64,000 bases of DNA from a virus. Shown piece after piece: positions 23 to 59,710 of this stretch (position 1 is the stretch's first letter; each line of letters begins with the position of its first letter). Under the pieces are notes generated by a model. That model did no database searches, had not been told where the DNA came from, and saw only the letters and a program-made list of their open reading frames with translations. The stretch lies in the IMG/VR virus record IMGVR_UViG_3300029267_000581, positions 1-64,000 of that record; one strand, 5' to 3'. Made by a program: the position numbers and the translations under genes.

Positions 23-38
23 GATCTGACTCGGATCG
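23..38. repeat. Degenerate copy of the dispersed GATC-bracketed 16-bp element (GATCTGACTCGGATCG)
   Basis: Two mismatches to the exact 16-mer found at 14100 and 57931. Lies in the non-coding left end. Confidence 0.6.
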
Positions 39-158
39 GCGCGGAGTCTACACGCCAGGGCTCACGCCAGGGCTCACGCCAGGGCTCACGCCAGGGCTCA
101 CGCCAGGGCTCACGCCAGGGCTTACGCCAGGGCTCACGCCAGGGTATAGACTCCGCGC
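39..158. repeat. Perfect 12-bp inverted repeat GCGCGGAGTCTA (39-50) / TAGACTCCGCGC (147-158) bracketing the 12-bp tandem array
   Basis: The two arms are exact reverse complements, read directly from the sequence. Confidence 0.9.
51..144. repeat. Tandem array of about 8 copies of a 12-bp unit CTCACGCCAGGG (first copy partial, one copy CTTACGCCAGGG), with no spacers
   Basis: Direct reading of positions 51-144. Confidence 0.95.
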
Positions 159-159
159 T

Positions 160-179
160 TTCCCTGGAATACCAGGGAA
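160..179. repeat. Palindrome TTCCCTGG-aata-CCAGGGAA (8-bp stem)
   Basis: Direct reading. It shares the CCAGGG core with the 12-bp repeat unit. Confidence 0.85.
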
Positions 180-211
180 GTGAAAGGGTGAGTCACTCCC
201 TCTCACACTGG

Positions 212-262
212 GGATTATGTCCTAAAACACGAGACGGGAAACTTTTTTTGAATATCCTACAT
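212..262 (-). promoter_or_regulatory. Copy P1 of a conserved promoter-like element (minus strand: ATGTAGGATATTCAAAAAAAGTTTCCC-N13-GGACATAA), firing leftward toward the repeat array
   Basis: Same architecture (A-rich tract, GTTTCC(G/C), 13-nt spacer, GGACATA) as the elements at 31.3, 41.5 and 51.1 kb. Confidence 0.45.
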
Positions 263-1267: not shown

Positions 1268-1293
1268 GCTTACCTCCTTTGATCGGACACCGA

Positions 1294-2955
1294 TCAGTAG
1301 ACGTGGGATGCCTCACGGATTTGGTATCGGAGCCTGGCGTGCAGAAACCGAACCTCGTCGTCAGACGGATTGATTGCTCCAGTCGCCCCTGGGATAACAG
1401 CGGCGTAGTAGCAATAGTTCTCATTGTCGACGATATGCGCCGAAGCCGGAGCTTCGTCTATCGTCTCGTACTGCGCTCCAGGGAAGTTGTACTGCGTAGG
1501 TGTGTTCAACGCCTCGACGATGCCCGTGAGCGGAATCGACTCATCGAACTGCCGCCTGAACAGCCACAACTCGATGTAGGCGTTCGCGTGCATCCCTGTC
1601 TGGTACAGGTACAGGCGAAGCGAGTGGAGCAGACAACCGTGTGGAAGCCCCGTGAGAGGAATGAACAGGGCATTTGTAGCCCTTGAGCCGGAAAGTGCCC
1701 AGTACCAGGGATAGCGCCATCCGAGGTTGTGCTGGAGGTAGTTCGGAGAGGCTCCGGTGATCTGCGTACCACGAGCGGCTGTTTCAATGCCCAGGTAGAA
1801 GTTGTTGTCGGTTGGGGCATCCCATGGATCGGTATTACCCGGACCAGGCAGCATCCCAGAGGCGTCGATTTGCAGGTACTTGTCGATGGCTACGGGGTTG
1901 TTGTAGCACTCGTCGACAACGTCCGAGTAGATGTACCCCTTGCCAGTAGCGACGTCGATGACATCCCCAGGAGCACCACCAGCGAAGAACCCCTTGGCCC
2001 GGAGCATCTTGAGGATCTGCGAGACAGATAGGGTCGTCGGGTCTTCCTTCGTTGCGGTCAACTGGTCGAAGACTGAGGGACCGGACCCAGGGCGAGCACG
2101 AAGGAAGGTGTCGACGACAGCGCCGACGCCAACGTGCCCGTCACCGAACTGAATCCCACCGAAAGGCTCGAAGCGAGCATCACCAGAGGGATCATAGTCC
2201 CAAGCCCTTGCCAACAGACCACCAGCCCCATTCCTCATCTCGGCCACAATTTGCATGAGACCGAGAATAGCCGTACCAATGTTCTGCGCCCCGTAGTCAG
2301 GCCCGAGGAGCGGTGTCGTCCATGCGAACGGGTCGGGAACAACGAAGTCCGAGAAGTAGTCCGCAACGACGGTGAGCTGGTCAGGCCCAGATGCCGTCTG
2401 GAAAAAGCCGATGTCAATCCATCCGGCGGCGGCTGCAACGGGGTCAGTACGAGCGTCGGTCGTACTCTCTTGCAGCTCCCACTCGTCTTCGTTGGTCGTA
2501 TACACGGATGCCATGTAGTGACCAGCGGTGTCGGAGTAGAAGTGCCGAGACTCGTAGTTGTTGTCCTGTCCACCAGGCACACGACGAGCCTGGATATACC
2601 GGATAGTCGAATACGGAGCCGCGGCAACGACGATACTCTTCGTCTTCGTTGCGTTGGGGCCTGTCAGGCGCTTCCCATCTGATCCGTATACGATTGCCTC
2701 GCGGTCGTACAAACCGTCGTTCCACTCCTGCTCGACCTGGATCGTGAGATTTGTAGCTGGACCAAGAATCGTGCATTGGAACGGAGCGACGAAGAACGGT
2801 CTCTTTGCGAGATCGTCCGCTGGGGTCTCGTAGTAGTCCGTGTTGCCCAGGAGAGTCCCCTGGATATAGTCCATCTGTTCGCTGATGCGGCTGATGAGTC
2901 GAGTCATGTCGATCAAATCGAACCGCTGTTGCGAGGTTACTTTGATTTCGTCCAT
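1294..2955 (-). CDS. Tail fibre / distal baseplate structural protein (candidate)
   Basis: 553-aa ORF downstream of the baseplate genes. Assignment is by position only. Confidence 0.55.
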   Translation of the reverse strand: MDEIKVTSQQRFDLIDMTRLISRISEQMDYIQGTLLGNTDYYETPADDLAKRPFFVAPFQCTILGPATNLTIQVEQEWNDGLYDREAIVYGSDGKRLTGPNATKTKSIVVAAAPYSTIRYIQARRVPGGQDNNYESRHFYSDTAGHYMASVYTTNEDEWELQESTTDARTDPVAAAAGWIDIGFFQTASGPDQLTVVADYFSDFVVPDPFAWTTPLLGPDYGAQNIGTAILGLMQIVAEMRNGAGGLLARAWDYDPSGDARFEPFGGIQFGDGHVGVGAVVDTFLRARPGSGPSVFDQLTATKEDPTTLSVSQILKMLRAKGFFAGGAPGDVIDVATGKGYIYSDVVDECYNNPVAIDKYLQIDASGMLPGPGNTDPWDAPTDNNFYLGIETAARGTQITGASPNYLQHNLGWRYPWYWALSGSRATNALFIPLTGLPHGCLLHSLRLYLYQTGMHANAYIELWLFRRQFDESIPLTGIVEALNTPTQYNFPGAQYETIDEAPASAHIVDNENYCYYAAVIPGATGAINPSDDEVRFLHARLRYQIREASHVY

Positions 2956-2962: not shown

Positions 2963-4699
2963 TCACAGCAAGCCGTAGTCTAGGAGAAGTACCCCACAGC
3001 CTGCCGCGAGGACTTTGTCCAGCGGAGTCGGCCTTTGGAGCATTGATTTGTACGTATCGTCGACAACCCCAGCAGTGACATACGGCGGGGGGATAGAGCC
3101 AAGAAGGGTGCCCAGGAGCCCCACCTCGGGACCGTAGAGCACAACAGGGAACATCGTGAACGCGCCGCCCTCGGATGGATCGGCAATGTAGTAGTCTCCG
3201 TAAGGAGCGGAGTCGACAGCATCGTCTCTGTAGTACGTGGAAGCGTACAGGCTTTGCTCAAAACCGTCTGGATAGGCGGTATGGTCCAGCCACGTCTCCC
3301 AGCACTCGATGGGCGGATCAGGAGAGACCTCGTCGTGCAGTTGGTCCACGCTGTACCAGATGGCGATGCAACCAGGCCAGCGCGGGTCTTCGTCGACAAT
3401 CACATGCGCCCAGAGACGAGGGAACATATACCGGATTGCGAGCTTCACAGTTTGGACTGTTCCACGCATCGTCACCGATGTATGGAATATCATCCGTCGA
3501 AGACCTGCGTCGTCGAGGCTGGGATTGTCCTCCCGAGGAGAACCTGCGTCCATACCGATGTACTCCAGAGACCGGCCCGAGGCACCGAAAGCGAGGAGAG
3601 CGTACTTTACGCGCTCCACAAACCCGGCACACCAGACGTCAGTGATCTCGTCCCCGGAATCGTGCTGTTGGAGAGGAGAGCGGAGCTGTGATCGCCCACA
3701 GATCACCGCAGTACCGGACACCAGATCGGACTCCTGGTACGCAATGATCTCCTTACCGATACGGATGAGAGACTGCCTTGGTGTGTATACCGCGAGAATA
3801 GTAGCCCCTGCCGGGAGAGGATTCAGGAGCCGAATGAGCCTGTCTTTGCCAGCCATGGGGGCGAACCACTCCGCGCTATCCAGCAGCCCTGTCTCCACAC
3901 CGATAGCCTCTCGGGCGGCAATGTAGAGTTGACATGAAAACGCATGGAACGGAATGCTTGTCCTGTATGTCGTGTTGACACCATCGGACGTGCCCCAGAG
4001 CTTGTCGACGTGACAAGGGATTTCGGCATCCTTGAACGTAAGCGTCGAACCGACCCCCGGTATGGGTGCCCCTGGTAGGGAGAACCCACCAGTACCGAAA
4101 ATCGGCAAGTATGTCGGCGTACCAGGACCGTCGATGCTGACTCCCAGCTTTCCCAACTGGGCACCAGAAACGATGTCGTTTATCTTGCCCACGATAGCCG
4201 CCATACCGTAAGCGAATGGCTGCTTAGAGCTGTTACTGAACTCAACCCTACCAAGTTTGCGAAGCTCTTTCAAAGCCTCGCGGAACCGAAGACCGGCACC
4301 TTCCCAGTACGTCGGGGTGTGTACGTCAACAGACGCAAGAGACAGAGCGTCAGATGTACCAACACCGCTGCCCCCAACGAAAAGGTTACCATCCCAGTCG
4401 ATTAGATTGCCCAGGACGTTCACGGTGACCGTGGGATTGCCCGAGGGTTCGTCGTCGAGGAGAAGGTACAGATGCCGAGGGGCTCCACCAGAACCGGGAG
4501 GCGGGGGTGCGGAGACAGGCTGTTCTTGAGACTCTGGCAAAAGAACCTCAAGAACAGTCCTACCAGTTACGGTGTACTCGGCAGTGTTCAACAGATCGGA
4601 GTTGACAGCCATTGCCCTCGTGGCGAATGTGGCGTCTTCCTCAAAGTTGATGCGAACAACGTGAGAGGAGACCTGTTCAACGCTTGCAAGCTGTGTCAT
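2963..4699 (-). CDS. Baseplate- or fibre-associated structural protein (candidate)
   Basis: 578-aa ORF immediately after the baseplate J-like gene. Assignment is by position only. Confidence 0.5.
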   Translation of the reverse strand: MTQLASVEQVSSHVVRINFEEDATFATRAMAVNSDLLNTAEYTVTGRTVLEVLLPESQEQPVSAPPPPGSGGAPRHLYLLLDDEPSGNPTVTVNVLGNLIDWDGNLFVGGSGVGTSDALSLASVDVHTPTYWEGAGLRFREALKELRKLGRVEFSNSSKQPFAYGMAAIVGKINDIVSGAQLGKLGVSIDGPGTPTYLPIFGTGGFSLPGAPIPGVGSTLTFKDAEIPCHVDKLWGTSDGVNTTYRTSIPFHAFSCQLYIAAREAIGVETGLLDSAEWFAPMAGKDRLIRLLNPLPAGATILAVYTPRQSLIRIGKEIIAYQESDLVSGTAVICGRSQLRSPLQQHDSGDEITDVWCAGFVERVKYALLAFGASGRSLEYIGMDAGSPREDNPSLDDAGLRRMIFHTSVTMRGTVQTVKLAIRYMFPRLWAHVIVDEDPRWPGCIAIWYSVDQLHDEVSPDPPIECWETWLDHTAYPDGFEQSLYASTYYRDDAVDSAPYGDYYIADPSEGGAFTMFPVVLYGPEVGLLGTLLGSIPPPYVTAGVVDDTYKSMLQRPTPLDKVLAAGCGVLLLDYGLL

Positions 4700-4707: not shown

Positions 4708-6141
4708 CTAGAACGTCAGCGTTCCGTTGCCACGTACAACCCCATAGGGGTGTGTCGGGGCAACGTCGCTAGTGGCTCCGGCGAGAAGCAAGTCATCCAC
4801 CTCGTCGATACCGGGGAGCTGGTGCAGAATCCCGGAGAGACGGTTGTAGCGGGCAGGCTTCCCGATGGGGAGGTCATTCAGGTAAGCTGCCACAGCGTCA
4901 GCCGCGACAGTTCGACCGTAGGCACTATCGAAACCTGACTTGAACGTCAGGGTTGCAGAGACAGTCGGGTTCGTCACAGAGAACGGAGGGCGCACTCGGA
5001 TCGAGTAGCCAACAGGACGCCAACCACGGTTGCTCAGGTCGTCAGGCTCTCCTGTGAGCTTACCGGCTGCGGCCTGTACGAGACCGTCGTAGAAGCTGAA
5101 CTGGCAACGAATCTTCTGAGTGATCGTCAGAGGCGATGCCAAAACGATCTGACCCCGATCACTGTCGACCCAGTAGTCGATGCCCTCTGTCTGAGCCACG
5201 TACCCGGCACCGTTGTCACGTTCAAGTGTCGCATTGACACCGTCGTTCCAAACCTCTAGTGCCTTCTTTGGGAGATCGACATAGAGGACGTTGCCGTTCG
5301 ACTCGTACTCAAACCAGTTTCCTGTGCCGTAGCCGTAGGTTGTGGCGTCGACAGAACCTATGCTCGCAGCCTGTCCTGTACCGTCGTCTATGATTGCGTA
5401 GATTACGCCGACAACAGACGGAGCTGGAGCCGCAAACTCCTCGAAAAGAGCCGCGTGACGAACCCGCTGCCCACCTGTGATTTCCACAGTCGTCAACAGG
5501 TTCTCGATGCCCAGCCAGGTACACTGACCGTGTGCTCGCCTAGCGGCGCGGGCGCGAGTCCGAAGGTTTGCATCAGATTCGCGGTCGTACCCACCAGCAG
5601 ATTCTGATGCGGTGAGGAAGTCAGCGACACCAGCTATGGGCTGCCTGAGTGACAGAGCCGTAGCCGTGGGGATGCCATTGGCTCTGTCACCAGTAGCCAG
5701 AGCAACACCGTACACAAGGTTCGACTCGGCGGCTGTTGCGGGAATCAAGGCCGCCGCCTCCGTTCTGAATGCGATCTCAGACTGGGTAGCCGTCGCTTTG
5801 CGAATGAAGATTGTATCCGGGGGGATACTGATTGCCACCGGCCAGCTCCCGCCGATGGGGCGGAAACGTCCAGACACTCGGGCAGCCGTAGGGGGCTCCC
5901 TGACGGCTTCGTTCTCCATGGCACGCCTGTCGAGTAGGACACCACGGAGACCTTCCAGACTGCCAGCTTTGACAGCGCGGATCATCTCCATGTTGGCACT
6001 CGCGGCGAACATGGACTGCACTACTAGGAACGCTCTCTGAGTTGTACGTGCTGCAAACGGGTATACCACCCCCGTCATGTTGCGGAAGATGGCTTTCCCG
6101 AGAGCAAAGAAGTCTTCGTGAGTCCAAGCTACGAGACGCAT
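4708..6141 (-). CDS. Baseplate J-like wedge protein
   Basis: 477 aa. The segment LDRRAMENEAVREPPTAARVSGRF...ISIPPDTIF resembles the LD..a...G..R..a..A.g.v.f...IP.Gt pattern of the baseplate J family. The position after the gp25-like domain also fits. Confidence 0.6.
   Translation of the reverse strand: MRLVAWTHEDFFALGKAIFRNMTGVVYPFAARTTQRAFLVVQSMFAASANMEMIRAVKAGSLEGLRGVLLDRRAMENEAVREPPTAARVSGRFRPIGGSWPVAISIPPDTIFIRKATATQSEIAFRTEAAALIPATAAESNLVYGVALATGDRANGIPTATALSLRQPIAGVADFLTASESAGGYDRESDANLRTRARAARRAHGQCTWLGIENLLTTVEITGGQRVRHAALFEEFAAPAPSVVGVIYAIIDDGTGQAASIGSVDATTYGYGTGNWFEYESNGNVLYVDLPKKALEVWNDGVNATLERDNGAGYVAQTEGIDYWVDSDRGQIVLASPLTITQKIRCQFSFYDGLVQAAAGKLTGEPDDLSNRGWRPVGYSIRVRPPFSVTNPTVSATLTFKSGFDSAYGRTVAADAVAAYLNDLPIGKPARYNRLSGILHQLPGIDEVDDLLLAGATSDVAPTHPYGVVRGNGTLTF
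5146..5161. repeat. Copy of the dispersed 16-bp element (GATCTGACCCCGATCA, 1 mismatch), inside a coding region
   Basis: Direct reading. Confidence 0.7.
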
Positions 6142-8252
6142 CAGTTTCTCAAAGCTCCTGCGAGAACAACCGTGTCATCGTAGTGCTCGAACTTGACTTT
6201 CGAGGAGTACGTGACGACCGAGCCCTCTTGCTTCACGGACACCCACTCGACAGCGGCGATGCGGGGGTCTTGTTCCAGCCAATTTGAGATGAGACTTTGC
6301 CAGAGTCTCATCGTCGCAGCGCCCCGTGATTTCGTTCCGATTCTCAGCGGGATAACTGCTACCTGATCCGGCGTCACGCCACCGGACCCCTCCAGAACTA
6401 CCGCAAGCTCCTGTTCAAAAGCCTTGACGCCAGAGACCATTGCGAAGTCGTACTCAGCCCAGACGAAGTCGCCTGTGAGAGCATTCACCTCCCAGTCAAT
6501 ACCAAGGAAGAGGTCTTGCAGGGAGACGAGGTCGTGAGTCATCGCGATGTTCAGCAAGTTCTCCACCAGTTCAGCGGGGACCTTGGCATCGGGAGCGGCG
6601 ACGTATATGGTGTCCCCCGGCCCTGCCTGGTAAGGCCCGGACTGAGGGGCAATGTACGGGTAGGTCAACCCGTTGATGAGTGCTATCTCAGGCCAGCGAG
6701 ACCAGAGCCCGAGGAGTTCGGTTGCGATGGAGTAGATGGTGTCTGTGGACTTGACAGTGTACGCACGGAACAGCGGGGCCAGCGTGGTTGGGTCTCGCAT
6801 ACCGAGGACAGCCCTACGGAACGACGACAGCTCTGCTGGTGTACCAGTACCGTCTCCCCGTACCCAACCAGGCAACAGCTTCGCCGCCAGGTAGGACAGA
6901 GGGTGCTGTGACGCCCCTCTCGGTCTCGTGGCCCTCGGAGTCCTGGCACCGTCCACAAACTCAGTGTCACCAGCCAGGAGAGCAGAGGCGAACTCATCTG
7001 ATCGACCGTCGATCAGACTGGCACCACCTGTACGAGAAGTCCTGTGCATGTCAGCCGCCTCTGAAGCGGCGTCGATGCTAGGGGAGAACTCGGGGAGAGG
7101 AGCCAGGTCTGCCGCCATGTGACCGGTGAATACAAGGTCCAATGCGGCTTCAGCCGCCTCGAATACGGAGTCATCCAGAGCAAGCTGGGTAGACTCCCCA
7201 CCGGCTGAACCTGCCTCTGTGAGAGCGTCGTTGACTGAATCAAGGATGCCCTCGGCCCCAGCGTATACACCGAGGATAGCCGTGCGCGTAGGCGGGATGA
7301 TGTACTGCTCCGCAAGGAACGGAACATCAAACTCCTGAGCACTGTTCGGCCTGTTCCTCACAGCCTTCTGGAACTCTTGCCCAAAAGCCATGGAGGCTGG
7401 GTTCTTCAGTGCCTCGTAGGAGGAGGCGGCTGTGTCAGACACAACCTTTGCCCCAAATTCGAGACCTTGGACACCAGCCGACATTGCTGAAATCGACTCC
7501 TGTACCGGATTCATGAATGCGCTGATGAACCCTGTCGACACCTGTGTACCAAGCTGTGATACGAGCAAGATCGACCTGTCGATCAGACGCTTCCAGTTCT
7601 CCGAATTGGCACGAACGGACGCCATGAACTCCCACCAGGGAATCTGCACGGTGTACCGTACAGTCGACAGCACTTGAAGGTCGATGGCAAAGCCGTAACC
7701 CATCGGGCGAGCCGCTGTGCGCGTCTTACGGAAGTTCATAGGAACGACCTGCAAGAACTCGACATCCTTGTGGTTCAGGAACAGCATCGCGACTTCGTGA
7801 GGGCGGTAGCGTACTTCGGCAGCCCACCGAGCGAAGAAGTTATACAGAGCCATCCAGAGTGCATAGCCGTCGTTGTTTCCAAGGACAGCGTCCGCACCAG
7901 GGATGACGTTGGAGACTGCGGAGATCGCGGAGGACACAGAGCTTCCGAAAGCACCGAGGTACTTGTTCAGGTCGCTCCTCTGCGGAAACTGACCGGTAGT
8001 ACCACGGATGGAGATGGTGCCCGTACCAACCTCGTTGACCGAGACGTAGACTCCGTCTGCCTGGTCTGGGTGAACATCGTTCGGAAATGCCAGGTTCGAG
8101 TCTATGTCGGAAGGACCGGGGGCAAACGTGTACTCAAGTATGGGTCTTGAGGCATCTACCACACCGCTCTGGATAGGAACGATGGACAGAGTGTAGATGC
8201 CCGACAGGTAGAACCCTTCCCTGTTTGGCGTGCGATGTTGGATCTGTAGCAT
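6141..8252 (-). CDS. Baseplate protein with a LysM-like segment and a C-terminal gp25/GPW-like domain
   Basis: 703 aa. YTVKSTDTIYSIATELLGLWSRWPEIALINGL...GDTIYV looks LysM-like. The C-terminal WLEQDPRIAAVEWVSVKQEGSVVTYSSKVKF resembles the wEPRi..v.v signature of gp25/GPW. Confidence 0.55.
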   Translation of the reverse strand: MLQIQHRTPNREGFYLSGIYTLSIVPIQSGVVDASRPILEYTFAPGPSDIDSNLAFPNDVHPDQADGVYVSVNEVGTGTISIRGTTGQFPQRSDLNKYLGAFGSSVSSAISAVSNVIPGADAVLGNNDGYALWMALYNFFARWAAEVRYRPHEVAMLFLNHKDVEFLQVVPMNFRKTRTAARPMGYGFAIDLQVLSTVRYTVQIPWWEFMASVRANSENWKRLIDRSILLVSQLGTQVSTGFISAFMNPVQESISAMSAGVQGLEFGAKVVSDTAASSYEALKNPASMAFGQEFQKAVRNRPNSAQEFDVPFLAEQYIIPPTRTAILGVYAGAEGILDSVNDALTEAGSAGGESTQLALDDSVFEAAEAALDLVFTGHMAADLAPLPEFSPSIDAASEAADMHRTSRTGGASLIDGRSDEFASALLAGDTEFVDGARTPRATRPRGASQHPLSYLAAKLLPGWVRGDGTGTPAELSSFRRAVLGMRDPTTLAPLFRAYTVKSTDTIYSIATELLGLWSRWPEIALINGLTYPYIAPQSGPYQAGPGDTIYVAAPDAKVPAELVENLLNIAMTHDLVSLQDLFLGIDWEVNALTGDFVWAEYDFAMVSGVKAFEQELAVVLEGSGGVTPDQVAVIPLRIGTKSRGAATMRLWQSLISNWLEQDPRIAAVEWVSVKQEGSVVTYSSKVKFEHYDDTVVLAGALRN

Positions 8253-20186: not shown

Positions 20187-20218
20187 GAGGCAGGAGACGA
20201 GACGTGATCGGACGACGA

Positions 20219-51116: not shown

Positions 51117-51899
51117 TCACTCTTGATCTGGGGCAGGAGGCTCTGGTGATCCGTCTGCGATCACCTCGGACTCCCCATCGCTGCCCTCAAGAGCCAAGCT
51201 GGCCTCACGCACCATCCTTGTGACAGCCTGATGACCAGCGGCATTCCGCTCTGTACGCGCCATGTAAGAATAGACCTGCTCCATGGCCTCGGGGTCAGAC
51301 TCGGTGACCTGCGCGACAGTCCTCTGTTGCTGGGCCTGAGCCTGATTCACATTTACCTGCACACCGGGGGCGTCTGACGTCATACCAGACATCCTTGCCG
51401 CCATGTCGAGAAGCTGTGTGTTCATGTGCATGACTGACTCGACATCTCGCACCTCGGGCTCCAGGGCTTTACGCTCCAGAATCATGCGCGAGATCTCATT
51501 ACCCTCAGCATACACGATGGGGCTGTCCAGTTGTCTTGAGGCATCTATGCGGTCAAGAAGACGACCACCGGACTCGGCCAGAAGTTTGCTGGAAAAAGCC
51601 TGAAGGTTCCCAAGGCGGCGGATTAGCTGCCCGTCCTGAATGGACATAGCCGCCTGTATTATCCGTGCCCTTCTGACCTTCAGAGGCTCGATCTCCCTTG
51701 TAGGGTCACCAGCATTGATGTACTTCGATACCGTCGAATGCGAGACGCCAAGCTCTTCAGCTATCTGCTCAGACGAATACTCCTTACAGTACAGGTCGAA
51801 CATTGCCTCGACGGTATCAACACGGATAGCGCGAGTCTTGCGGTCCTTCTTTTTCTTGCGCTTACTCTTTGGTATTTTGAACTTGAACTTTTTGGGCAT
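51117..51899 (-). CDS. HTH DNA-binding protein with a Lys-rich N-terminus (regulator or small-terminase-like, undecided)
   Basis: 260 aa. EQIAEELGVSHSTVSKYI is a clear HTH. Confidence 0.55.
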   Translation of the reverse strand: MPKKFKFKIPKSKRKKKKDRKTRAIRVDTVEAMFDLYCKEYSSEQIAEELGVSHSTVSKYINAGDPTREIEPLKVRRARIIQAAMSIQDGQLIRRLGNLQAFSSKLLAESGGRLLDRIDASRQLDSPIVYAEGNEISRMILERKALEPEVRDVESVMHMNTQLLDMAARMSGMTSDAPGVQVNVNQAQAQQQRTVAQVTESDPEAMEQVYSYMARTERNAAGHQAVTRMVREASLALEGSDGESEVIADGSPEPPAPDQE

Positions 51900-51907: not shown

Positions 51908-52690
51908 CTACGCGATGATGGCAGAGGCTACCACGTTGAACGGGTGGATGCTCTCCTGGCTATCGACATGGACAGTCCCCGAGATGATGCCGTCGATGTC
52001 CTTCAGAGCCGTCACGGCGTCCCGCACAACATCTTCGGCGAACTTCGGGTTGGCGAAGGCATCGGCGACGATCTGTTTCTCATCCGGGCGTTTCACGATG
52101 CCGTACACGGGGCTAGAGCCCGAGGTTCGTAGAGCAGCGATGACGTCCTCGATCCATACGTGGTTTCCTTGCGCGATCTGGACCTCGGCTGTGACCTCAC
52201 ACCTCTGCACATGAGCGGCTCTGTTGTCGTTGAGAGCCAGACTGCACGGACAGACGGACATGACCGGTACTGTGACGTGCATGTACTGGAAGACCATCGT
52301 GCCCGTGAGAGCCGCCTGAAGGACGGACCTATAGTACGCAGGGAACAGGTTGTCTGTGATCGGAGAACGATCATCAGGCACCCTGTAGTCGAACGAGTAC
52401 GCCGCCACGACGTGCTGACTCCCAAGGGCTTTCGCCACGTCGAGAACGAGCTGCTTCAGGATACCCTCCCCGGCCTTGTGCGGGCGTGTTTCCACAGCCC
52501 TAGCGATGCGGCTCAGATGTGTACCTTTCGAGTCCTCGTCAAGACGCACAGTGACGGTGAGGCTGGCGTCGTAAGGGACGTGCTCACCGTCCCTGTTCTT
52601 GAGAAGAAGCGGTGCCTTGACCCCGCTGAAACCGACCATGACAGGTATGCCCCTGTCGTCTCCTTGTGAGTGAATATCTGGCAAGCTCAT
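51908..52690 (-). CDS. folE2: GTP cyclohydrolase I type 2 (FolE2/MptA family)
   Basis: GTHLSRI matches THMSRF. VCPCS is the CPCS motif. AAHVQR matches AHNQR. QESIHPFNVVA matches ESIHNH.A. The start was chosen at MSLPDIH. Confidence 0.8.
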   Translation of the reverse strand: MSLPDIHSQGDDRGIPVMVGFSGVKAPLLLKNRDGEHVPYDASLTVTVRLDEDSKGTHLSRIARAVETRPHKAGEGILKQLVLDVAKALGSQHVVAAYSFDYRVPDDRSPITDNLFPAYYRSVLQAALTGTMVFQYMHVTVPVMSVCPCSLALNDNRAAHVQRCEVTAEVQIAQGNHVWIEDVIAALRTSGSSPVYGIVKRPDEKQIVADAFANPKFAEDVVRDAVTALKDIDGIISGTVHVDSQESIHPFNVVASAIIA

Positions 52691-54799: not shown

Positions 54800-55317
54800 G
54801 ACCATAGCTCCACTTCTCCTCGTGCGTCCAGCGTTCTGTTCCCAGCCGAGTAGTTCGTCCAGGTAAGACGCAAGACACGCGAAGATGGTCCTGTTGCGGG
54901 TAGATACGCCTCTGTCAGAGATATATCCGCCCCACCACTGCTGAACACTTTGTGGCTGAGATTCAGCGCAGCCGCCGCCTTGGTGTAGATGGCATTGTAC
55001 GAGGTAGAGATCAGGTTACCATGCCCACCAAGAGACATGGAAGAAGCCTCAAGAGAACTGCGCCCAACGACAACAAGAGCGCCAGCCATACCGCCAGCAA
55101 GTTCTGTCACACGGGCTGATCGAAGATGGATCACCGCAGCCACGATGTCGTAGGGCACCGAGATGTCCCAGTCGGAAGGCCCACCGGGCAGCGGTGGAAC
55201 TACCAGTGACGTATTGCTGATCGTCATGTTGTACGGACGTCGGTGGTGTTGTTCGGCAAGTACGTTCGACAAAGCCGAGTGGAGTGTAGGGTGCTCCAGA
55301 TATGACTGTAGCCTCAT
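54796..55317 (-). CDS. Small beta-rich protein, tandem paralogue 3 of 3 (fibre-tip/accessory candidate)
   Basis: 173 aa. It starts MRL, carries an N-terminal (E/D)(Q/D)HH motif and overlaps its neighbours by ATGA. Confidence 0.6.
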   Translation of the reverse strand: MRLQSYLEHPTLHSALSNVLAEQHHRRPYNMTISNTSLVVPPLPGGPSDWDISVPYDIVAAVIHLRSARVTELAGGMAGALVVVGRSSLEASSMSLGGHGNLISTSYNAIYTKAAAALNLSHKVFSSGGADISLTEAYLPATGPSSRVLRLTWTNYSAGNRTLDARGEVELWS

Positions 55318-55793: not shown

Positions 55794-56305
55794 GTCACCT
55801 CCGCATGACCCTTCACCGATAGTGTAGCACTACCGCCGAAATAATTTTGGAAGGTAAGCCGCAATGTCGAACCGATTATCTGGGCGTCCTTCAGCGCAAT
55901 GTACCTACTACCGGGGTTCGTCACAGTATCGAAGATCTTATGCGTCAGGTTCGTAACCCCCACAGCCTTCGCATAGGTCACGACATAAGACTTGTAGATG
56001 CTTCCGGTGTTTCGGACGCTGTGGCCTATTGCGTCTGAAAGCGTAGTTGTTACGTACACAATGGCGCACTCACGCCACTTCGTAGCTGACCCACCACCCG
56101 AGATTGCTGGCCCCTCCAGGTACACCCTAGCCAACCTGAAATCGGAGTGGGGCAGAGTGACGTCCAGATTGAATGACGTACCTGGAGGCAGCGATGTCGT
56201 AGTGTCCGAAAAGCTGACGTAATTCGGAGCAGGATGGTGGTCGTCGACAGTGATCGCTGACAGATCAGCATGATCCCGTAGGTTGAAACCACCAGGCAGC
56301 CTCAT
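55790..56305 (-). CDS. Small beta-rich protein, tandem paralogue 1 of 3
   Basis: 171 aa with MRLPGGF...VDDHHPAP...PPGT. Confidence 0.6.
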   Translation of the reverse strand: MRLPGGFNLRDHADLSAITVDDHHPAPNYVSFSDTTTSLPPGTSFNLDVTLPHSDFRLARVYLEGPAISGGGSATKWRECAIVYVTTTLSDAIGHSVRNTGSIYKSYVVTYAKAVGVTNLTHKIFDTVTNPGSRYIALKDAQIIGSTLRLTFQNYFGGSATLSVKGHAEVT

Positions 56306-57930
56306 GTCAGCCTCACTCCCCAGACCTCGATGTCGTGCGTATTCGACCCGAGGTGGTCGGTGAAGTTGTAGTGGAACTCTTGCGTACCGTCCTCATCCTC
56401 GTAGGTGAGGTCAAGCCATGCCTCGTAATCACCCTCACGTCGGACGAGGATTGCCTTCGGGTCCGTGGTGTAGTCATCTCTTGCATACACCGTCAGCGTC
56501 CACGACAGAGCAGAGGTCTCGACCCGTACTCGCTTGAGCAGAACCTTGTCCTCAAACCCTGTGATGGAGTTGTTGCCCTCGGCCACTCCGGTATCAGTCA
56601 CATTGACCAGTTCTGCGCCTGGTACACTCATGGTCAGTCCTCCCGCCCCGTCAGAGACGGGCACAGTACCAGCGGGTCCGGCTGTCGTCAGGGCCTCGAT
56701 GTGAGCACCCGCCACGGAGACATGCTCCGTTCCGTTGACAGTCTTGGTGCCAGACAGCTCACCGATGAACGCATTGAGGGTTGATCCGACAGCGATCACG
56801 TAGGCTGTCGTCGCCGCAAGTCGAGCGATGACAAGCTCCATGGAGCCCCCACCAGCACCGACGTTGAGACCCGTACCGTTGCCAACACCGCCACCAGTCT
56901 CGAGGATATGCGCGACATAACCCTCGGTCGTACCCGTCGAGAACCTGGCGATTGCAGTACCAGTACCCTGGATGTAGATGTCCTCGCACTTGACATGGAC
57001 ATGGCCTTGTGCCGATGAGGCGTCACCGATACCAAAGCCGTTTTCAAGGTAGGTCTGCTTGACCTCGTACATGAGCACAGAGCCAACACCGACGTTGAGA
57101 GCAGCGATGGCTGTACCAGTGACCTCGACCCGATCTGCCTCAAACCGGGATGTCCCCGAGCCCGAGAGCTTGGAGACTGCGAACCCAGAGGTGACCTTGT
57201 AGACCTCGCGAACCTTGCAGTCTACGTTGTCGTTCAAGGTGATTGTCCCCTCGATGCGGGCGGCTGGAGCCCACAGGGACACCCACGACGGCAGCGTTAT
57301 GTTCTCGGCGTAGATACCCGCGTCGATGACGCAGACCTTGAACCGATTGGTCGAGCTTGGCCCCTGCGCGACAGCCGCCGAGATGGCGCTCGCTATCGTC
57401 TCCTTCGCATAGGAGAATGACCTACCGCTGGCGGCGTCGTCTCCGTGCTTCCCGACGAAGTAGACCTGATCCGCAGACCAGGCTCCAGCGGGGGTCAGCA
57501 TTGAGAGCCCACCGGCCCCATCGGCAGTGGGAACCTGTCCAGCTACCGCGCTGGCTGTTGCGAGGTTCTCCACGCTGATCTCGTCAGTCCCCCCATCGCT
57601 GTGCGAAGCGGCGTGAGCCAGCGGAGTCTGGGGGTCCGCTAGGAGCCCAGCAAGGTCTGTGACGTCGATCTCGTCGACACCCCCATCCTCGTGCGTTATG
57701 GCGTGGAGTCCCACAGGAGCAGCCCCCATGTTGAGATTTCCAGCACCATCAGAGACCGGGACAGTACCAGCAGCACCCGAGGTGTTCAGCTCTTCGATGT
57801 CTCGGGCGAAGAGGTCCGTTGCCCTCATGAGGAACTCAAGGAACATGCGCTTGTCTATGTACGGAACCTTAGTCACAGCGGAGGATAGCCGCTGCAACAT
57901 ATCTTCAAGGATTGAATCGCGAATGCCCAT
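56302..57930 (-). CDS. Tail fibre/tailspike with repeated H..DGG.DEI motifs and a beta-helix-like body
   Basis: About 542 aa from MGIRDSIL. LHAITHEDGGVDEIDV and AHAASHSDGGTDEISV are followed by Gly/Thr/Val-rich repeats typical of beta-helix spikes. Confidence 0.6.
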   Translation of the reverse strand: MGIRDSILEDMLQRLSSAVTKVPYIDKRMFLEFLMRATDLFARDIEELNTSGAAGTVPVSDGAGNLNMGAAPVGLHAITHEDGGVDEIDVTDLAGLLADPQTPLAHAASHSDGGTDEISVENLATASAVAGQVPTADGAGGLSMLTPAGAWSADQVYFVGKHGDDAASGRSFSYAKETIASAISAAVAQGPSSTNRFKVCVIDAGIYAENITLPSWVSLWAPAARIEGTITLNDNVDCKVREVYKVTSGFAVSKLSGSGTSRFEADRVEVTGTAIAALNVGVGSVLMYEVKQTYLENGFGIGDASSAQGHVHVKCEDIYIQGTGTAIARFSTGTTEGYVAHILETGGGVGNGTGLNVGAGGGSMELVIARLAATTAYVIAVGSTLNAFIGELSGTKTVNGTEHVSVAGAHIEALTTAGPAGTVPVSDGAGGLTMSVPGAELVNVTDTGVAEGNNSITGFEDKVLLKRVRVETSALSWTLTVYARDDYTTDPKAILVRREGDYEAWLDLTYEDEDGTQEFHYNFTDHLGSNTHDIEVWGVRLT

Positions 57931-57946
57931 GATCTGACTCCGATCA
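57931..57946. repeat. Exact copy 2 of the dispersed 16-bp element GATCTGACTCCGATCA. On the minus strand it reads TGA-TCGGAGTCAGATC-ATG and links the two fibre genes
   Basis: Identical to 14100-14115. Confidence 0.9.
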
Positions 57947-59674
57947 CAGGTTGTTCGCCAGCACGTTACCCGTACCGGTGTCTGTGTAGGTTCCGGCAGA
58001 ACCATTCACGATGTCACGGAAGTTGTTTCCGGTGCAGATACAGTAGTTACCGGATACTCCGATCAACACCGCAGGATTCACACCGACGCCACCACCGACA
58101 TTGTCGCTCTGCCCGACGTTACCCTCGACAATGCTGGCTTCTGTGAGGTTCACGTCAAAGCCGGCTATGCCGCTTCCGCTACAAGTAACAGTGTTTTCGC
58201 AGAACTTGATCCTGTCACCTGTGCGAATCTGGGCGATGTTACCAAACGACCCAGACTTCAGGATGGCAGCCCCGATGCACGATGAGTAGGAGGCTGTGAG
58301 GGCAGCCGCATTGAAACCACTGAGATCAGTGAAGCTGCCACCATTCACGTACATTGGGTTTCCGAATGCCGTCTCAAACGCGAGAGTGCCTTCTGTGGAT
58401 AGACACTCGACGACATGAAATGCTCCAGTCTCGTGTGAACCGCTGAACGAGTCTTGCTTGTAGTGGACGAAGTTCTGCCCACCGACGAATGAAGGATCTG
58501 GCGCACCAAGGCTCTCACAGTTGAGGCACCAGGAGTGTCCATCATACTGCGTCCTGAAAGCCGACGTGACAGCAATGGCGTATGGGTCGAAGCCTGCCCA
58601 GGAGTTCTCGTACTCAACACGGACACGGATGCAGCGAGAGTCGATACCCAGATCCACCATCGAACCCGGCATCTGAAAAACAACCCCTGTTGGGTCGTCT
58701 GCGCCGAGGAATGTCAGATCGCGAAGACACGCTCCAGTGCCGAGCGTGGCTGCACGGGGATCGTCGTAGACAGTCTTGATCGTGACGCACTCCATCCCAG
58801 CCCCGACGACGTTGACGCCCGCAGGAATCAACAATGGACCGAAAGGCCCACCACCAGCCGCAAGGTCGTAAGAACCTGGACGGATGTAGATGTCCGTGCC
58901 AACAGCCACGCCCTCAATTGCTGCGCGGAGAAGGGCTCCGTTCGTCCCATCATACAGGAAGTCGCAATCCGAGGCCGAGTCTCCCATCGCAGAGTTGCCG
59001 ATGATCAGAGTTGGGGCCTGTGCCCCACCACCACCGCCACCAGGAATCGTGACATCGACAGCACCCGCACCGGCTGACGTGACAGTGACACCCGCACCGA
59101 TGAAGTCTATGACAGTTGTGGCGGGGTCGATCTGTATGCCCTCGTCCTGTACCTCAAGCGGACTGCCCCCTCCTCCAGGAGCGATGTCCTCGCGGATCTG
59201 CTTGAGTATCCGGTACAGCTCTCGCTGTGCTCCGTAGGGGTTGTCAGGCCCGAAGTGATCGAGCCAGTTTGCGAAGTCCCTCTCGTTGTAGGCTGGCAGA
59301 TCCCAGTCCCCGAGATTCCCGCCGCCGGATGCAGCTCCGAGAGACGGGTACGACACACCGGCCACGGTGACTGCATACCCCTCGGAGTCATCGCTGAGAC
59401 CGTTCACTCGCAGAGAGACGACGTACCGCCCATACACGTCGGCGTTGAGCGTGCAGGAGTTACCTGTCGCTCCAACGAGCGAAGCTGCCGAACCTGGGGG
59501 GCGTTCGATGAGTGTCCACTGCCACTTGTACGCTCCGATGTCACCATCGGCTGAATTTGCAAACTCGATCTCATCCCCGGCACCTGCGTAGATGGTCAGA
59601 CCACGAAGCGCCTTGCCGGGGGTGGACGACAGCCCTGAATTCGACTGCGAGATCGAGATCTCGGCCTTTGCCAT
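57944..59674 (-). CDS. Tail fibre/tailspike with an N-terminal Ig/PKD-like segment and a beta-helix-like body
   Basis: 576 aa. PLEVQDEGIQIDPATTVIDFIGAGVTVTS is a fibre-like motif, and the protein has poly-Gly linkers. Confidence 0.6.
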   Translation of the reverse strand: MAKAEISISQSNSGLSSTPGKALRGLTIYAGAGDEIEFANSADGDIGAYKWQWTLIERPPGSAASLVGATGNSCTLNADVYGRYVVSLRVNGLSDDSEGYAVTVAGVSYPSLGAASGGGNLGDWDLPAYNERDFANWLDHFGPDNPYGAQRELYRILKQIREDIAPGGGGSPLEVQDEGIQIDPATTVIDFIGAGVTVTSAGAGAVDVTIPGGGGGGAQAPTLIIGNSAMGDSASDCDFLYDGTNGALLRAAIEGVAVGTDIYIRPGSYDLAAGGGPFGPLLIPAGVNVVGAGMECVTIKTVYDDPRAATLGTGACLRDLTFLGADDPTGVVFQMPGSMVDLGIDSRCIRVRVEYENSWAGFDPYAIAVTSAFRTQYDGHSWCLNCESLGAPDPSFVGGQNFVHYKQDSFSGSHETGAFHVVECLSTEGTLAFETAFGNPMYVNGGSFTDLSGFNAAALTASYSSCIGAAILKSGSFGNIAQIRTGDRIKFCENTVTCSGSGIAGFDVNLTEASIVEGNVGQSDNVGGGVGVNPAVLIGVSGNYCICTGNNFRDIVNGSAGTYTDTGTGNVLANNL

Positions 59675-59693
59675 CTATCCTCCTATCTCGGCT

Positions 59694-59710
59694 TGATCGG
59701 CGTCAGATCA
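59694..59710. repeat. Inverted-orientation copy of the dispersed element (TGATCGGCGTCAGATCA). The QueE stop codon lies in its arm
   Basis: Direct reading. It has 1 mismatch to the exact 16-mer when reverse-complemented. Confidence 0.7.

What the first reader, a model, noticed from the sequence alone, without database searches (positions are those of the whole stretch)
23..59710. A dispersed GATC-bracketed 16-bp element GATCTGA-NN-CCGATCA often coincides with stop codons at gene junctions
Seen:
- The exact 16-mer GATCTGACTCCGATCA occurs at 14100-14115 and 57931-57946.
- One-mismatch copies lie at 5146-5161 (GATCTGACCCCGATCA), 48722-48737 (GATCTGAATCCGATCA) and, in inverted orientation, 59694-59710.
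- Looser copies lie at 23-38, 13243-13258, 44843-44858, 22265-22280 (inside the hairpin before the capsid gene), 46677-46692 and 26924-26939.
- Related TGATCGG-N-CCGATCA palindromes lie at 1281-1296 and 20204-20222.
Back-of-envelope, a given 16-mer with at most 1 mismatch is expected about 0.0015 times in 128 kb (128000 x 49 / 4^16), whereas five are seen. Copies inside genes fall in different reading frames (DRGQI, VIGFRS, DQTQI), so this is a nucleic-acid signal rather than a peptide motif. On the coding strand it reads TGATC-GGAGTCA-GATC, a 5-bp stem with GGAG in the loop. At 14113, 57944, 59708, 1294 and 20219 its TGA is the actual stop codon. At 57930 an ATG follows directly.
Inference: the element could be an RNA hairpin controlling termination-reinitiation coupling or processing, a parS-like or operator site for the ParB-fold or HTH proteins, or a Dam-regulated site.
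Basis: partly seen in the sequence, partly recalled or inferred. Interest (0 to 1): 0.65.

Follow-up and report, generated by a model that had tools for sequence, protein, structure and literature searches.

The report
Evenly spaced GATC-N7-GATC palindromes tiling phage
An 87-kb uncultured phage and all its known relatives carry about one copy per kilobase of the palindrome TGATC-N7-GATCA, kept at the DNA level even inside genes and spaced far more evenly than chance, which looks like an array of docking sites for a phage DNA-binding protein, most likely its partner-less ParB clamp.

Summary
The 16-mer belongs to a palindromic motif, Y-GATC-KGANTCM-GATC-R. It has 53 copies in the window (1.9 expected) and 76 in the whole 87-kb phage genome.

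- Both GATCs are strictly required. The only favoured spacing is 11 bp. No other inverted 4-mer pair is enriched.
- 59 copies lie inside genes, in every frame that avoids an in-frame TGA. Codon shuffles give about 1.5 copies and synonymous shuffles about 6.5.
- Eight copies supply the stop codon of the upstream gene. This explains the "gene junction" impression.
- Spacing is strikingly regular: CV 0.52 against 0.98 for random placement, no pair closer than 251 bp, and one gap over 3 kb.
- At least seven lineages of this phage family (46-58% GC, about 45% amino-acid identity) keep the motif. Six do so at 0.5-0.9 copies per kb. Individual positions turn over.

I read this as a duplex-DNA array of docking or loading sites for a symmetric dimer. 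The best candidate reader is the phage's ParA-less ParB-CTPase. Its gene has the 2nd-4th highest GC3 in all three complete genomes.

Rival readers are the DpdA-like/ParB-fold 7-deazaguanine module and an HTH protein. An RNA hairpin is unlikely. No binding or modification data could be obtained.

The parts
23..37 (.). GATC-N7-GATC site, non-coding terminal region next to the 12-bp tandem array
1281..1295 (.). site; its TGA is the stop codon of gene 1294-2955 (-)
3690..3704 (.). site inside CDS 2963-4699 (-), frame 2
5146..5160 (.). site inside CDS 4708-6141 (-), frame 0
7000..7014 (.). site inside CDS 6141-8252 (-), frame 2
8747..8761 (.). site inside CDS 8255-9118 (-), frame 0
9287..9301 (.). 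site inside CDS 9115-10854 (-), frame 2; followed by the longest site-free gap (3956 bp, tape-measure region)
13243..13257 (.). site inside CDS 13165-13581 (-), frame 0
14100..14114 (.). site (exact 16-mer of the finding); its TGA is the stop codon of the tail-tube-like gene 14113-14559 (-)
15750..15764 (.). site inside CDS 14568-16397 (-), frame 0
17201..17215 (.). site inside CDS 16397-17404 (-), frame 0
17839..17853 (.). site at the junction of CDS 17401-17847 and 17847-18671 (-)
18090..18104 (.). site inside CDS 17847-18671 (-), frame 0
20206..20220 (.). site; its TGA is the stop codon of gene 20219-20755 (-)
22265..22279 (.). intergenic site forming the top of a 9-bp G+C stem just upstream of the capsid gene 20767-22224 (-)
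24531..24545 (.). site inside the 1416-aa CDS 24119-28369 (-), frame 2
25542..25556 (.). site inside CDS 24119-28369 (-), frame 2
26924..26938 (.). site inside CDS 24119-28369 (-), frame 0
27479..27493 (.). site inside CDS 24119-28369 (-), frame 0
28695..28709 (.). site inside CDS 28353-29369 (-, S66 peptidase), frame 0
29139..29153 (.). site inside CDS 28353-29369 (-), frame 0
29603..29617 (.). site inside CDS 29362-30048 (-, QueC-like), frame 2
30402..30416 (.). site inside CDS 30048-31310 (-), frame 0
31525..31539 (.). site inside CDS 31411-32046 (-, QueC), frame 0
32370..32384 (.). site inside CDS 32046-32750 (-, QueC), frame 0
33866..33880 (.). site inside CDS 33405-34334 (-), frame 1 (5' flank is C, so no TGA)
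35585..35599 (.). site inside CDS 34334-36247 (-), frame 0
36742..36756 (.). site inside the portal gene 36289-37791 (-), frame 0
38602..38616 (.). site inside the large terminase gene 37822-39669 (-), frame 0
39954..39968 (.). site inside CDS 39720-40046 (-), frame 0
40930..40944 (.). site inside small CDS 40879-41046 (-), frame 0
41206..41220 (.). site inside CDS 41077-41523 (-), frame 0
41964..41978 (.). site inside CDS 41808-42482 (-), frame 0
43819..43833 (.). site inside CDS 43774-44076 (-), frame 0
44843..44857 (.). site inside CDS 44747-45088 (-), frame 0
45666..45680 (.). site inside CDS 45093-45767 (-), frame 0; the only position conserved in all three complete genomes
46677..46691 (.). 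intergenic site, 20 bp after the stop of gene 46711-46872 (-)
47088..47102 (.). site inside CDS 46869-47249 (-), frame 0
48364..48378 (.). site inside CDS 48329-48670 (-), frame 1 (flank C)
48722..48736 (.). site inside CDS 48703-48954 (-), frame 2
50324..50338 (.). intergenic site, 22 bp after the stop of gene 50360-50770 (-)
51148..51162 (.). site inside the HTH-protein gene 51117-51899 (-), frame 2
52358..52372 (.). site inside FolE2 gene 51908-52690 (-), frame 0; same amino-acid position in relative L005
54154..54168 (.). site inside GT4 glycosyltransferase gene 53504-54805 (-), frame 1 (flank C)
55118..55132 (.). site inside CDS 54796-55227 (-), frame 2
56252..56266 (.). site inside CDS 55790-56305 (-), frame 0
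56783..56797 (.). site inside fibre-like CDS 56302-57930 (-), frame 2
57931..57945 (.). site (exact 16-mer); its TGA is the stop of 57944-59674 (-). Its GGAG lies 9 nt before, and GATC directly abuts, the ATG of 56302-57930
59695..59709 (.). site; its TGA is the stop codon of the QueE-like gene 59708-60379 (-)
60449..60463 (.). site; its TGA is the stop codon of gene 60462-60842 (-); followed by a G+C hairpin
61273..61287 (.). site inside the ParB-fold gene 60883-61734 (-), frame 0
62614..62628 (.). site inside the DpdA-like gene 61731-62741 (-), frame 2
63170..63184 (.). site inside CDS 63133-63513 (-), frame 2
60883..61734 (-). candidate reader or partner: ParB/Srx-fold protein (DGHHR motif, no HTH), overlapping the stop of the DpdA-like gene
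   Evidence: Pfam ParB_N E=1.4e-5, 25.5 bits, just under the 26.3 cutoff; PHROG ParB-like hits; alignment A4
61731..62741 (-). DpdA-like (TGT-family) candidate DNA transglycosylase
   Evidence: PHROG 887 queuine tRNA-ribosyltransferase E=5.5e-12; TIM-barrel model; no Pfam, NCBIfam, PDB or PADLOC hit
51117..51899 (-). candidate reader: Lys-rich tail + HTH + long-helix protein next to FolE2, conserved in the clade
   Evidence: weak HTH_38, HTH_23, Terminase_5 and HTH_7 hits; alignment A6; model

Best explanation
The element is a duplex-DNA signal: a two-fold symmetric 17-bp site, T-GATC-(K-G-A-N-T-C-M)-GATC-A. Its two invariant GATC blocks lie 11 bp apart, on the same face of the helix. Selection keeps about one copy per 1.1-1.6 kb tiled evenly over the whole genome of this phage family.

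I propose, as inference, that the sites are docking or loading sites for a phage-encoded symmetric dimer. The most likely reader is the phage's ParA-less ParB-family CTPase, at genome 69594-70730 (- strand), just outside the window. On this model ParB loads at each site as a clamp and slides or spreads over a territory of about 1 kb. Replicating phage DNA would then be coated, organised, shielded or globally regulated, as with KorB on plasmid RK2 or Noc on the Bacillus chromosome, but at 50-100 times higher site density.

Shown here: the motif, its strictness, its DNA-level selection, its even spacing, its conservation across the clade with positional turnover, the presence of a canonical ParB-CTPase without ParA, and that gene's top-ranked third-position G+C content (GC3).

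For: 1. Palindromic position matrix. Flanks are T (53/76) and A (59/76). The centre K-G-A-N-T-C-M is self-complementary, including positions 7 and 9. The same matrix appears in G001 and G002.
2. Strictness. There are 76 exact sites against 2.9 expected, but only 63 one-mismatch variants against 49 expected. Solitary GATCs show no T/A flank bias.
3. DNA-level selection. About 59 in-gene sites are observed, against about 1.5 after codon shuffling and about 6.5 after synonymous shuffling. All usable reading frames are used.
4. Even tiling. Spacing CV is 0.52, 0.59 and 0.69 in the three genomes against 0.98 for random placement (p<=0.003). In the window's genome no spacing is under 250 bp (15 expected) and one exceeds 3 kb (5.4 expected).
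5. Conservation. All clade lineages examined carry the motif: L005, L072, L073, L076/77, L078, L236, G001 and G002. L073 is a 5.7-kb fragment with a single copy, so it shows presence but not density.
6. Turnover. Few positions are orthologous. G0-G1 share 3 and G0-G2 share 1. G1-G2 share 11 of 30-36, against 0.26 expected.
7. The ParB has ParB_N plus HTH_ParB domains, scores 96 bits on TIGR00180 (cutoff 58), and carries GFRRFEA (GxxRxxA) and ENLxRE motifs and a conserved HTH. No ParA was found in the genome-wide precomputed Pfam tables.
8. Expression proxy. The ParB gene ranks 2nd, 3rd and 4th of about 105 genes for GC3 in the three genomes, level with or above the capsid gene. The HTH and ParB-fold genes rank 92-93.
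9. Specificity. The clade-specific ParB occurs in every lineage that has the motif. The motif was enriched in no IMG/VR record outside the clade and in none of 120 bacterial loci.
Against: There is no binding data of any kind.

All three candidate readers (ParB, the HTH protein, and the DpdA-like/ParB-fold pair) co-occur in every sufficiently long clade member. Presence or absence therefore cannot separate them.

Classical parS, OB and NBS sites are conserved across the whole half-site and tolerate near-cognate variants. Here the two GATC blocks are all-or-none and the centre is loose. That pattern looks more like an enzyme or a methylation-dependent reader.

No ParB is known to use 76 sites on 87 kb.

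GC3 is only a proxy for expression.
Confidence: 0.42

Rival explanations
1. The motif is the recognition site of the DpdA-like transglycosylase working with the adjacent ParB-fold protein, a phage analogue of bacterial DpdA-DpdB. One or more G of the paired GATCs is exchanged for a 7-deazaguanine derivative. The evenly spaced modified sites mark or protect the genome.
For: The phage has a full preQ0 gene set: FolE2, QueD, QueE and three QueC-like genes. It also has a TGT-like gene (PHROG 887, E=5.5e-12) overlapped by a ParB-fold gene. The same gene pair recurs in a very distant contig, L235. Bacterial DpdA needs the ParB-like DpdB and acts at a palindrome-like site (PMC10164549). All-or-none dependence on GATC suits an enzyme.
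Against: Modification sites give no obvious reason for positive selection on number and even spacing. Phages normally modify whatever sites they have. The distant DpdA-like/ParB-fold contig L235 has no GATC at all and no enriched palindrome. Characterised phage DpdAs use short motifs such as GA and GGC (PMC7544227 and PMC10484667). Neither gene hits the PADLOC models, and neither passes Pfam or PDB tests.
Confidence: 0.2
2. The reader is the 260-aa Lys-rich HTH protein (51117-51899). It would act either as a small-terminase-like DNA-recognition subunit, by analogy with the methylation-sensitive TGATCA/G hexamers of the phage P1 pac site, or as a global regulator.
For: It has an HTH followed by a roughly 50-residue helix, an architecture like small terminases. 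There is a weak Terminase_5 hit. It is conserved in G000, G001, G002 and L005. The P1 pac hexamer TGATC(A/G) resembles the motif arm; this comparison is from memory and was not tested.
Against: There is no significant structural match. Its GC3 is low, rank 93 of 107. A pac function does not predict 76 evenly spaced sites. The gene lies 12 kb from the large terminase gene.
Confidence: 0.1
3. The paired GATCs are read through adenine methylation, by a host or phage Dam-type methylase plus a SeqA-like or other methyl-sensitive host factor. This would sequester or time-stamp replicating phage DNA.
For: The spacing puts two GATCs one helical turn apart, which suits SeqA-type binding (from memory). 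Clade members G001, G002 and L236 encode an MT-A70 adenine methyltransferase with a DPPW motif.
Against: The window's genome has no methyltransferase homologue yet has the densest array. SeqA-type binding tolerates several spacings and has no flank or centre preferences, whereas here only 11 bp occurs and the flanks and centre are palindromic. The host is unknown. The 383 solitary GATCs are unremarkable.
Confidence: 0.1
4. The signal acts as a hairpin in single-stranded nucleic acid. As an RNA stem-loop it would serve processing or translational coupling. As an ssDNA hairpin it would serve as a lagging-strand priming signal or a nick site.
For: The isolated 21-nt RNA folds at a mean of -5.7 kcal/mol, with the arms paired in 93% of sites. 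Spacing of 1.1-1.6 kb resembles Okazaki-fragment length (from memory). Nick-associated motifs enriched across phage clades are known (PMC11780129).
Against: There is no covariation: only GATC arms occur, and no other 4-mer stem is enriched. The symmetry includes positions 7 and 9, which cannot pair. The arms pair in only 36 of 76 sites within 101-nt context. Most sites are inside ORFs. There is no Rfam match. Known nick motifs are asymmetric and confined to one strand.
Confidence: 0.07

Closest known systems
KorB and its 12 OB operators on IncP plasmid RK2 (PMC11790492)
   Same: A ParB-family CTPase reads short palindromes dispersed over a mobile genome, many of them far from promoters or inside genes. 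It acts at a distance as a sliding clamp.
   Different: RK2 has 12 sites on 60 kb, against 76 on 87 kb here. The OB sequence (TTTAGCSGCTAAA) is unrelated. KorB has a ParA partner (IncC) and clamp-locking partners (KorA, TrbA), and none was recognised here. RK2 is a plasmid, not a lytic-type myovirus. Even spacing is not reported for OB.
Noc and its roughly 70 NBS sites on the Bacillus subtilis chromosome (from memory)
   Same: A ParA-less ParB paralogue has many dispersed palindromic sites from which it spreads.
   Different: Density is about 1 per 60 kb, against 1 per 1.1 kb here. Noc is a host chromosomal protein with a membrane-targeting helix. The ParB here scores 93 bits on the Noc model, far below its cutoff of 315.
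17-bp dyad repeats of Cluster O mycobacteriophages (TGTTCGG-N3-CCGAACA, 34 copies in Corndog; PMC4351075)
   Same: An invariant 17-bp palindrome is scattered through a non-temperate phage genome, partly inside genes. Its function is unknown, and the authors predicted that a dimeric protein binds it. The genome also encodes a ParB-like domain protein.
   Different: About 34 copies on roughly 70 kb, concentrated at one end rather than evenly spaced. Two-thirds are intergenic or near gene ends. The arms are 7 bp with a 3-bp spacer. There is no GATC.
Cyanobacterial highly iterated palindrome HIP1 (GCGATCGC)
   Same: A GATC-centred palindrome occurs at about one per kilobase, inside genes, and is maintained by selection. 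Its function is unresolved.
   Different: HIP1 is a single 8-bp palindrome in a cellular genome. Here there are two GATCs at a fixed 11-bp distance in a phage.
Bacterial DpdA-DpdB 7-deazaguanine insertion (PMC10164549)
   Same: A TGT-like enzyme is encoded next to a ParB-fold protein, with preQ0 biosynthesis genes and a palindromic target.
   Different: The ParB-fold protein here is shorter (283 aa), has DGHHR rather than DGQQR, and hits no DpdB model. No restriction genes (dpdD-K) were seen. Modification at the motif is unproven.

Membership tests
ParB-CTPase with cognate palindromic sites (parS / OB / NBS type) | Reader protein with an N-terminal ParB CTPase domain (GxxRxxA and ENLxRE boxes) followed by an HTH | tested here: met
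   Genome 69594-70730 (-). Pfam ParB_N plus HTH_ParB. TIGR00180 96 bits against a cutoff of 58.45. GFRRFEA, ENLxRE and the HTH are conserved in three genomes.
ParB-CTPase with cognate palindromic sites (parS / OB / NBS type) | Site is a 13-17-bp palindrome present in cis on the same replicon | tested here: met
   The position matrix is fully self-complementary over 17 bp.
ParB-CTPase with cognate palindromic sites (parS / OB / NBS type) | This ParB binds this site, with CTP-dependent loading | not testable with these tools
   Needs gel shift, bio-layer interferometry or ChIP. Co-occurrence in all clade members does not discriminate.
ParABS partition system | ParA ATPase partner and a few sites clustered near parB | tested here: not met
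   No ParA, CbiA or AAA_31 hit appears in the precomputed Pfam tables covering the genome. The 76 sites are evenly dispersed.
Dpd-type 7-deazaguanine DNA modification (DpdA/DpdB) | DpdA: TGT-family TIM-barrel transglycosylase | tested here: inconclusive
   PHROG 887 E=5.5e-12. The model is a generic TIM barrel. No Pfam, NCBIfam, PDB-profile or PADLOC hit.
Dpd-type 7-deazaguanine DNA modification (DpdA/DpdB) | DpdB: ParB-fold ATPase with a DGQQR motif and a helical C-terminal domain | tested here: inconclusive
   ParB_N 25.5 bits against a cutoff of 26.3. The motif is DGHHR, and the protein has an acidic linker and a short C-terminal region. No PADLOC Dpd hit. The gene pair is conserved in distant contig L235.
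Dpd-type 7-deazaguanine DNA modification (DpdA/DpdB) | preQ0 pathway genes present | tested here: met
   FolE2 6.9e-57, QueD/PTPS 1.3e-24 and a radical-SAM QueE-like gene. QueC paralogues.
Dpd-type 7-deazaguanine DNA modification (DpdA/DpdB) | The modified base sits in the motif | not testable with these tools
Dam/SeqA-type paired hemimethylated GATC | GATC methyltransferase available, with several helical-phase spacings tolerated | tested here: not met
   This genome has no methyltransferase homologue. Only the 11-bp spacing is enriched.
Structured RNA element | Covarying stem or a match to a known family | tested here: not met
   No Rfam hit. Only GATC arms are enriched. The arms pair in 36 of 76 sites within 101-nt context.

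The most novel reading that the evidence does not exclude
The array, the abundant orphan ParB clamp and the adjacent ParB-fold/DpdA-like module form one system. ParB loads at each TGATC-N7-GATCA site and spreads about 1 kb, so the 76 evenly spaced sites give wall-to-wall coverage of replicating phage DNA. This coat either shields the genome from host nucleases and defence systems, or recruits and licenses the 7-deazaguanine insertion machinery along it. It would be a cis-encoded 'self' tiling code for a lytic phage genome, a role not described for any ParB protein.
Probability: 0.15. Interest if true: 0.9.

Novelty: new variant of a known kind. Interest (0 to 1): 0.74.

Why it matters
If the reading is right, a family of lytic-type phages has written roughly one protein-loading site per kilobase into its own genes. 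It pays an amino-acid and codon cost at about 60 positions and keeps the spacing even while individual sites come and go.

That would show selection acting on genome-wide coverage rather than on local regulation. It would also give a clean, testable protein-and-site pair for the large and functionally unexplained class of ParA-less phage ParB proteins.

The motif sits in a genome with an elaborate 7-deazaguanine pathway. It may therefore help answer how DpdA-type enzymes are targeted, which is still open even for the bacterial system (PMC10164549).

Practically, the motif is a specific marker for this phage clade in metagenomes. A single 17-mer scan recovered two further complete genomes.

Tried and rejected
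1. The true spacer is 7.
2. Megablast of 10 kb against GenBank phages found no match.
3. Single-protein scans of IMG/VR with the capsid and ParB-fold proteins found nothing. The large-terminase alignment found only the clade.
4. The genome search with 'relatives' is not available for virus records.
5. I looked for natural knock-outs to separate the candidate readers. Every long clade contig carries ParB and, where the contig reaches that far, the DpdA-like/ParB-fold pair. No discrimination was possible.
6. Host-genome mimicry. Those 120 loci were scattered single hits with no enriched genome, which is only a weak negative.
7. Population data. Contigs from other samples are at least 99.7% identical, too few differences to test purifying selection on the sites.
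8. Structure of the DpdA-like protein: a generic TIM barrel with no TGT or DpdA match. Structure of the HTH protein: low confidence, with no significant match.
9. A site inside parB itself occurs in 4 of 5 lineages, but this is what the site density predicts by chance.
10. Literature searches for the motif string and for GATC with 7-deazaguanine found nothing relevant. One search was wasted by a poor term choice.

Full report
**What is there**

They are the best-matching members of a much larger family.
- The pattern GATC-N7-GATC occurs 53 times in the window, against 1.87 expected. None of 100 dinucleotide shuffles reached 53.
- The window is bases 1-64000 of an 87,079-bp virus record with a 144-bp terminal repeat. 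The unique genome has 76 sites.
- In the histogram of distances between GATCs, 11 bp is the only peak.
- Among all 256 tetramers paired with their reverse complement at spacers of 0-20 bp, GATC-N7-GATC is the top outlier at z=40. Only its shifted form TGAT-N9-ATCA comes close.

**Anatomy**

Aligning the 76 sites gives a fully self-complementary 17-bp matrix.
- The 5' flank is T (53) or C (21), followed by an invariant GATC.
- The centre reads K, G (44), A (37), N, T (42), C (53), M.
- A second invariant GATC follows, then a 3' flank of A (59) or G (14).

The two GATC blocks are all-or-none. One-mismatch variants number 63 against 49 expected, whereas exact sites number 76 against 2.9. The 383 solitary GATCs show no T/A flank preference. 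Their count matches what codon usage predicts: 535 GATCs in total against about 500 in shuffles.

**It is a DNA-level signal under selection**

Essentially all of about 106 genes lie on the minus strand.
- 59 sites lie inside genes, in frames 0, 1 and 2 at 37, 5 and 17.
- Frame 1 occurs only when the flank is not T, because TGATC would otherwise create an in-frame stop.
- Codon shuffling within genes leaves about 1.5 in-gene sites. Synonymous shuffling, which keeps every protein intact, leaves about 6.5 (the 17 intergenic copies are untouched by these shuffles).
- Intergenic sites are enriched 3-4 fold relative to non-coding space in all three complete genomes.
- In each genome, 7-8 sites donate their TGA as the stop codon of the upstream gene.

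It affects about 10% of sites, and it is the one way the forbidden frame can be used.

**Even tiling**

- Spacings have a mean of 1144 bp and a CV of 0.52, against 0.98 for random placement. None of 10,000 simulations reached that value.
- No two sites are closer than 251 bp, where 15 spacings under 250 bp are expected.
- Only one gap exceeds 3 kb, where 5.4 are expected.
- The largest gap is the tape-measure region in all three genomes. This is unexplained.

**Relatives**

The ParB-fold protein has only three homologues in 5.8 billion proteins. A contig encoding the 58%-identical one carries 19 sites in 18.6 kb.

A scan of IMG/VR with the 17-mer consensus returned 47 loci. Only two records were enriched:
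- G001: 95.8 kb, 52% GC, 64 sites.
- G002: 87.4 kb, 54% GC, 53 sites.

Both are syntenic with this genome. They share 55 of 107 proteins at about 45% identity. They have the same position matrix and regular spacing, with CV 0.59 and 0.69.

Further lineages found through ParB or DpdA-like homologues behave the same way at 48-54% GC: L076/77, L078, L236 and L072. A 46%-GC lineage, L073, is a 5.7-kb fragment with one copy. In the 48% GC lineage the centre preference fades and the flanks become TT...AA. The conserved core is therefore TGATC-N7-GATCA.

Positions turn over.
- G1 and G2 share 11 of 30-36 sites at the same residue, against 0.26 expected.
- G0 shares only 3 with G1 and 1 with G2.
- G0 shares about 2 of 13 with L005.
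- A single site, window 45666, is common to all three genomes.

Individual sites are thus preserved well beyond neutral expectation but are replaceable. What is conserved is density and spacing. This argues against gene-specific regulation and for a function that needs coverage of the whole molecule.

**Who reads it**

The symmetry covers positions 7 and 9, which flank a single central base and cannot pair in a hairpin. It therefore points to duplex DNA read by a two-fold symmetric protein, with two recognition elements in successive major grooves.

Three candidates are conserved throughout the clade.

(a) A canonical ParB-family CTPase just outside the window.
- It has ParB_N plus HTH_ParB domains and scores 96 bits on TIGR00180.
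- It carries the GFRRFEA and ENLxRE boxes and Lys-rich tails.
- It has no ParA partner anywhere in the genome.
- It sits among the SSB, RecA and Mre11/Rad50-like genes.
- Its gene ranks 2nd, 3rd and 4th of about 105 for third-position G+C in the three genomes, level with the capsid gene. This suggests high abundance.

(b) A ParB/Srx-fold protein (DGHHR motif, no HTH) that overlaps a TGT-like "DpdA-like" gene, within a complete preQ0 pathway.

(c) A Lys-rich HTH protein followed by a long helix, next to FolE2.

A ParB clamp that must load in cis and covers a limited distance gives a natural reason for selection on both number and even spacing. This is why I rank (a) first. KorB on RK2 shows that a ParB clamp can use dispersed palindromes and act at kilobase range (PMC11790492).

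Against (a), the all-or-none GATC blocks with a loose centre look more like an enzyme site or a methylation-dependent site.

For (b), bacterial DpdA needs the ParB-like DpdB and acts at a palindrome-like site (PMC10164549). The DpdA-like/ParB-fold pairing also recurs in a very distant contig. However, that contig has no GATC and no enriched palindrome. A modification target also gives no obvious reason to be enriched and evenly spaced.

Presence or absence could not separate the candidates.

**Methylation**

This genome encodes no methyltransferase. G001, G002 and L236 encode an MT-A70 (DPPW-motif) enzyme, and in G002 it lies between RecA and ParB. Methylation may therefore modulate the sites, but a phage-encoded enzyme is not required to keep the array.

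**RNA and single-strand readings**

- The 21-nt RNA folds at a mean of -5.7 kcal/mol, but the arms pair in only 36 of 76 sites within 101-nt context.
- There is no covariation and no Rfam match.
- Most sites are inside ORFs.
- Nick-associated motifs of other phages are asymmetric and confined to one strand (PMC11780129).

**Comparison with what is known**

The closest published case is the set of 34 invariant 17-bp dyad repeats of Cluster O mycobacteriophages. Their function is unknown, the authors predicted that a dimeric protein binds them, and the genomes also carry a ParB-like gene (PMC4351075). Those repeats are mostly intergenic and concentrated at one end of the genome.

KorB/OB and Noc/NBS are the closest mechanistic models. 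HIP1 of cyanobacteria is a formal parallel, being a GATC-centred palindrome at about one per kilobase.

Searches of the held literature for the motif found nothing. Earlier AI notes in this scan report similar evenly spaced palindromes alongside orphan ParB genes in other phages. I treat these as leads only.

**Limits**

- There is no binding, modification or transcript data.
- The host is unknown.
- My gene calls are home-made, based on a codon-usage log-odds score. They agree with the called genes returned with the contigs.

**Verdict**

The stop-codon and RNA interpretations are not supported as the main function. The parS-like or operator option is the best available reading, with ParB as the probable reader at about 0.4. 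I class it as a new variant of a known kind, and its interest is high.

Noticed in passing
G001 33857-34363; G002 72329-72835; L236:13039-13560: Three clade members encode an MT-A70-family adenine methyltransferase with a DPPW motif. In G002 it lies between RecA and ParB. The window's genome has no homologue, yet it has the densest motif array.
   Followed up: partly
L235 (7.4 kb, 30% GC) and L234 (13.7 kb, 28% GC): These contigs carry very distant homologues of the DpdA-like protein and contain no GATC at all (about 20 and 35 expected). In L235 the DpdA-like gene is again directly followed by a ParB_N gene, so this pairing is an old module.
   Followed up: partly
window 9302-13242 (and the orthologous regions of G001 and G002): The largest motif-free gap in all three complete genomes falls on the tape-measure region. 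I have no explanation for this.
   Followed up: no
genome 83647-83661, 83951-83965 and 84745-84759 (outside the window): Three intergenic motif copies (GATCCGATTCCGATC) sit in a repeated unit between small early genes. The unit reads: stop codon, motif, G+C hairpin, conserved CATTCTGGGGCCGATCCCAGCA, Shine-Dalgarno sequence.
   Followed up: partly
window 22254-22290: The motif forms the apex of a 9-bp G+C stem (GGGGGCGGT ... ACCGCCCCC) directly upstream of the major capsid gene. It is the only copy embedded in a long hairpin.
   Followed up: no
window 39-179: A 12-bp tandem array (CTCACGCCAGGG repeats) lies immediately beside the first motif copy in the roughly 540-bp non-coding terminal region. 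This could be an origin or packaging region.
   Followed up: no
L223, L224 and L231 (metagenome contigs with 32%-identical ParB relatives): They carry 4-5 copies of another palindrome, CGGAC-N6-GTCCG, clustered within a few kb of parB. This looks like an ordinary parS-type arrangement in a different ParB lineage.
   Followed up: partly
genome 69594-70730 (-), and the orthologues in G001 and G002: The ParB gene has the 2nd-4th highest third-position G+C of about 105 genes in each genome, at or above the capsid gene. This suggests very high expression.
   Followed up: yes
L005:2319-4412 and L234:2835-5483: Relatives carry inteins: a Hint domain in the Rad50/SMC-like gene of L005, and an intein-splicing domain in the DNA polymerase of L234. 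Both are absent from the window's genome.
   Followed up: no
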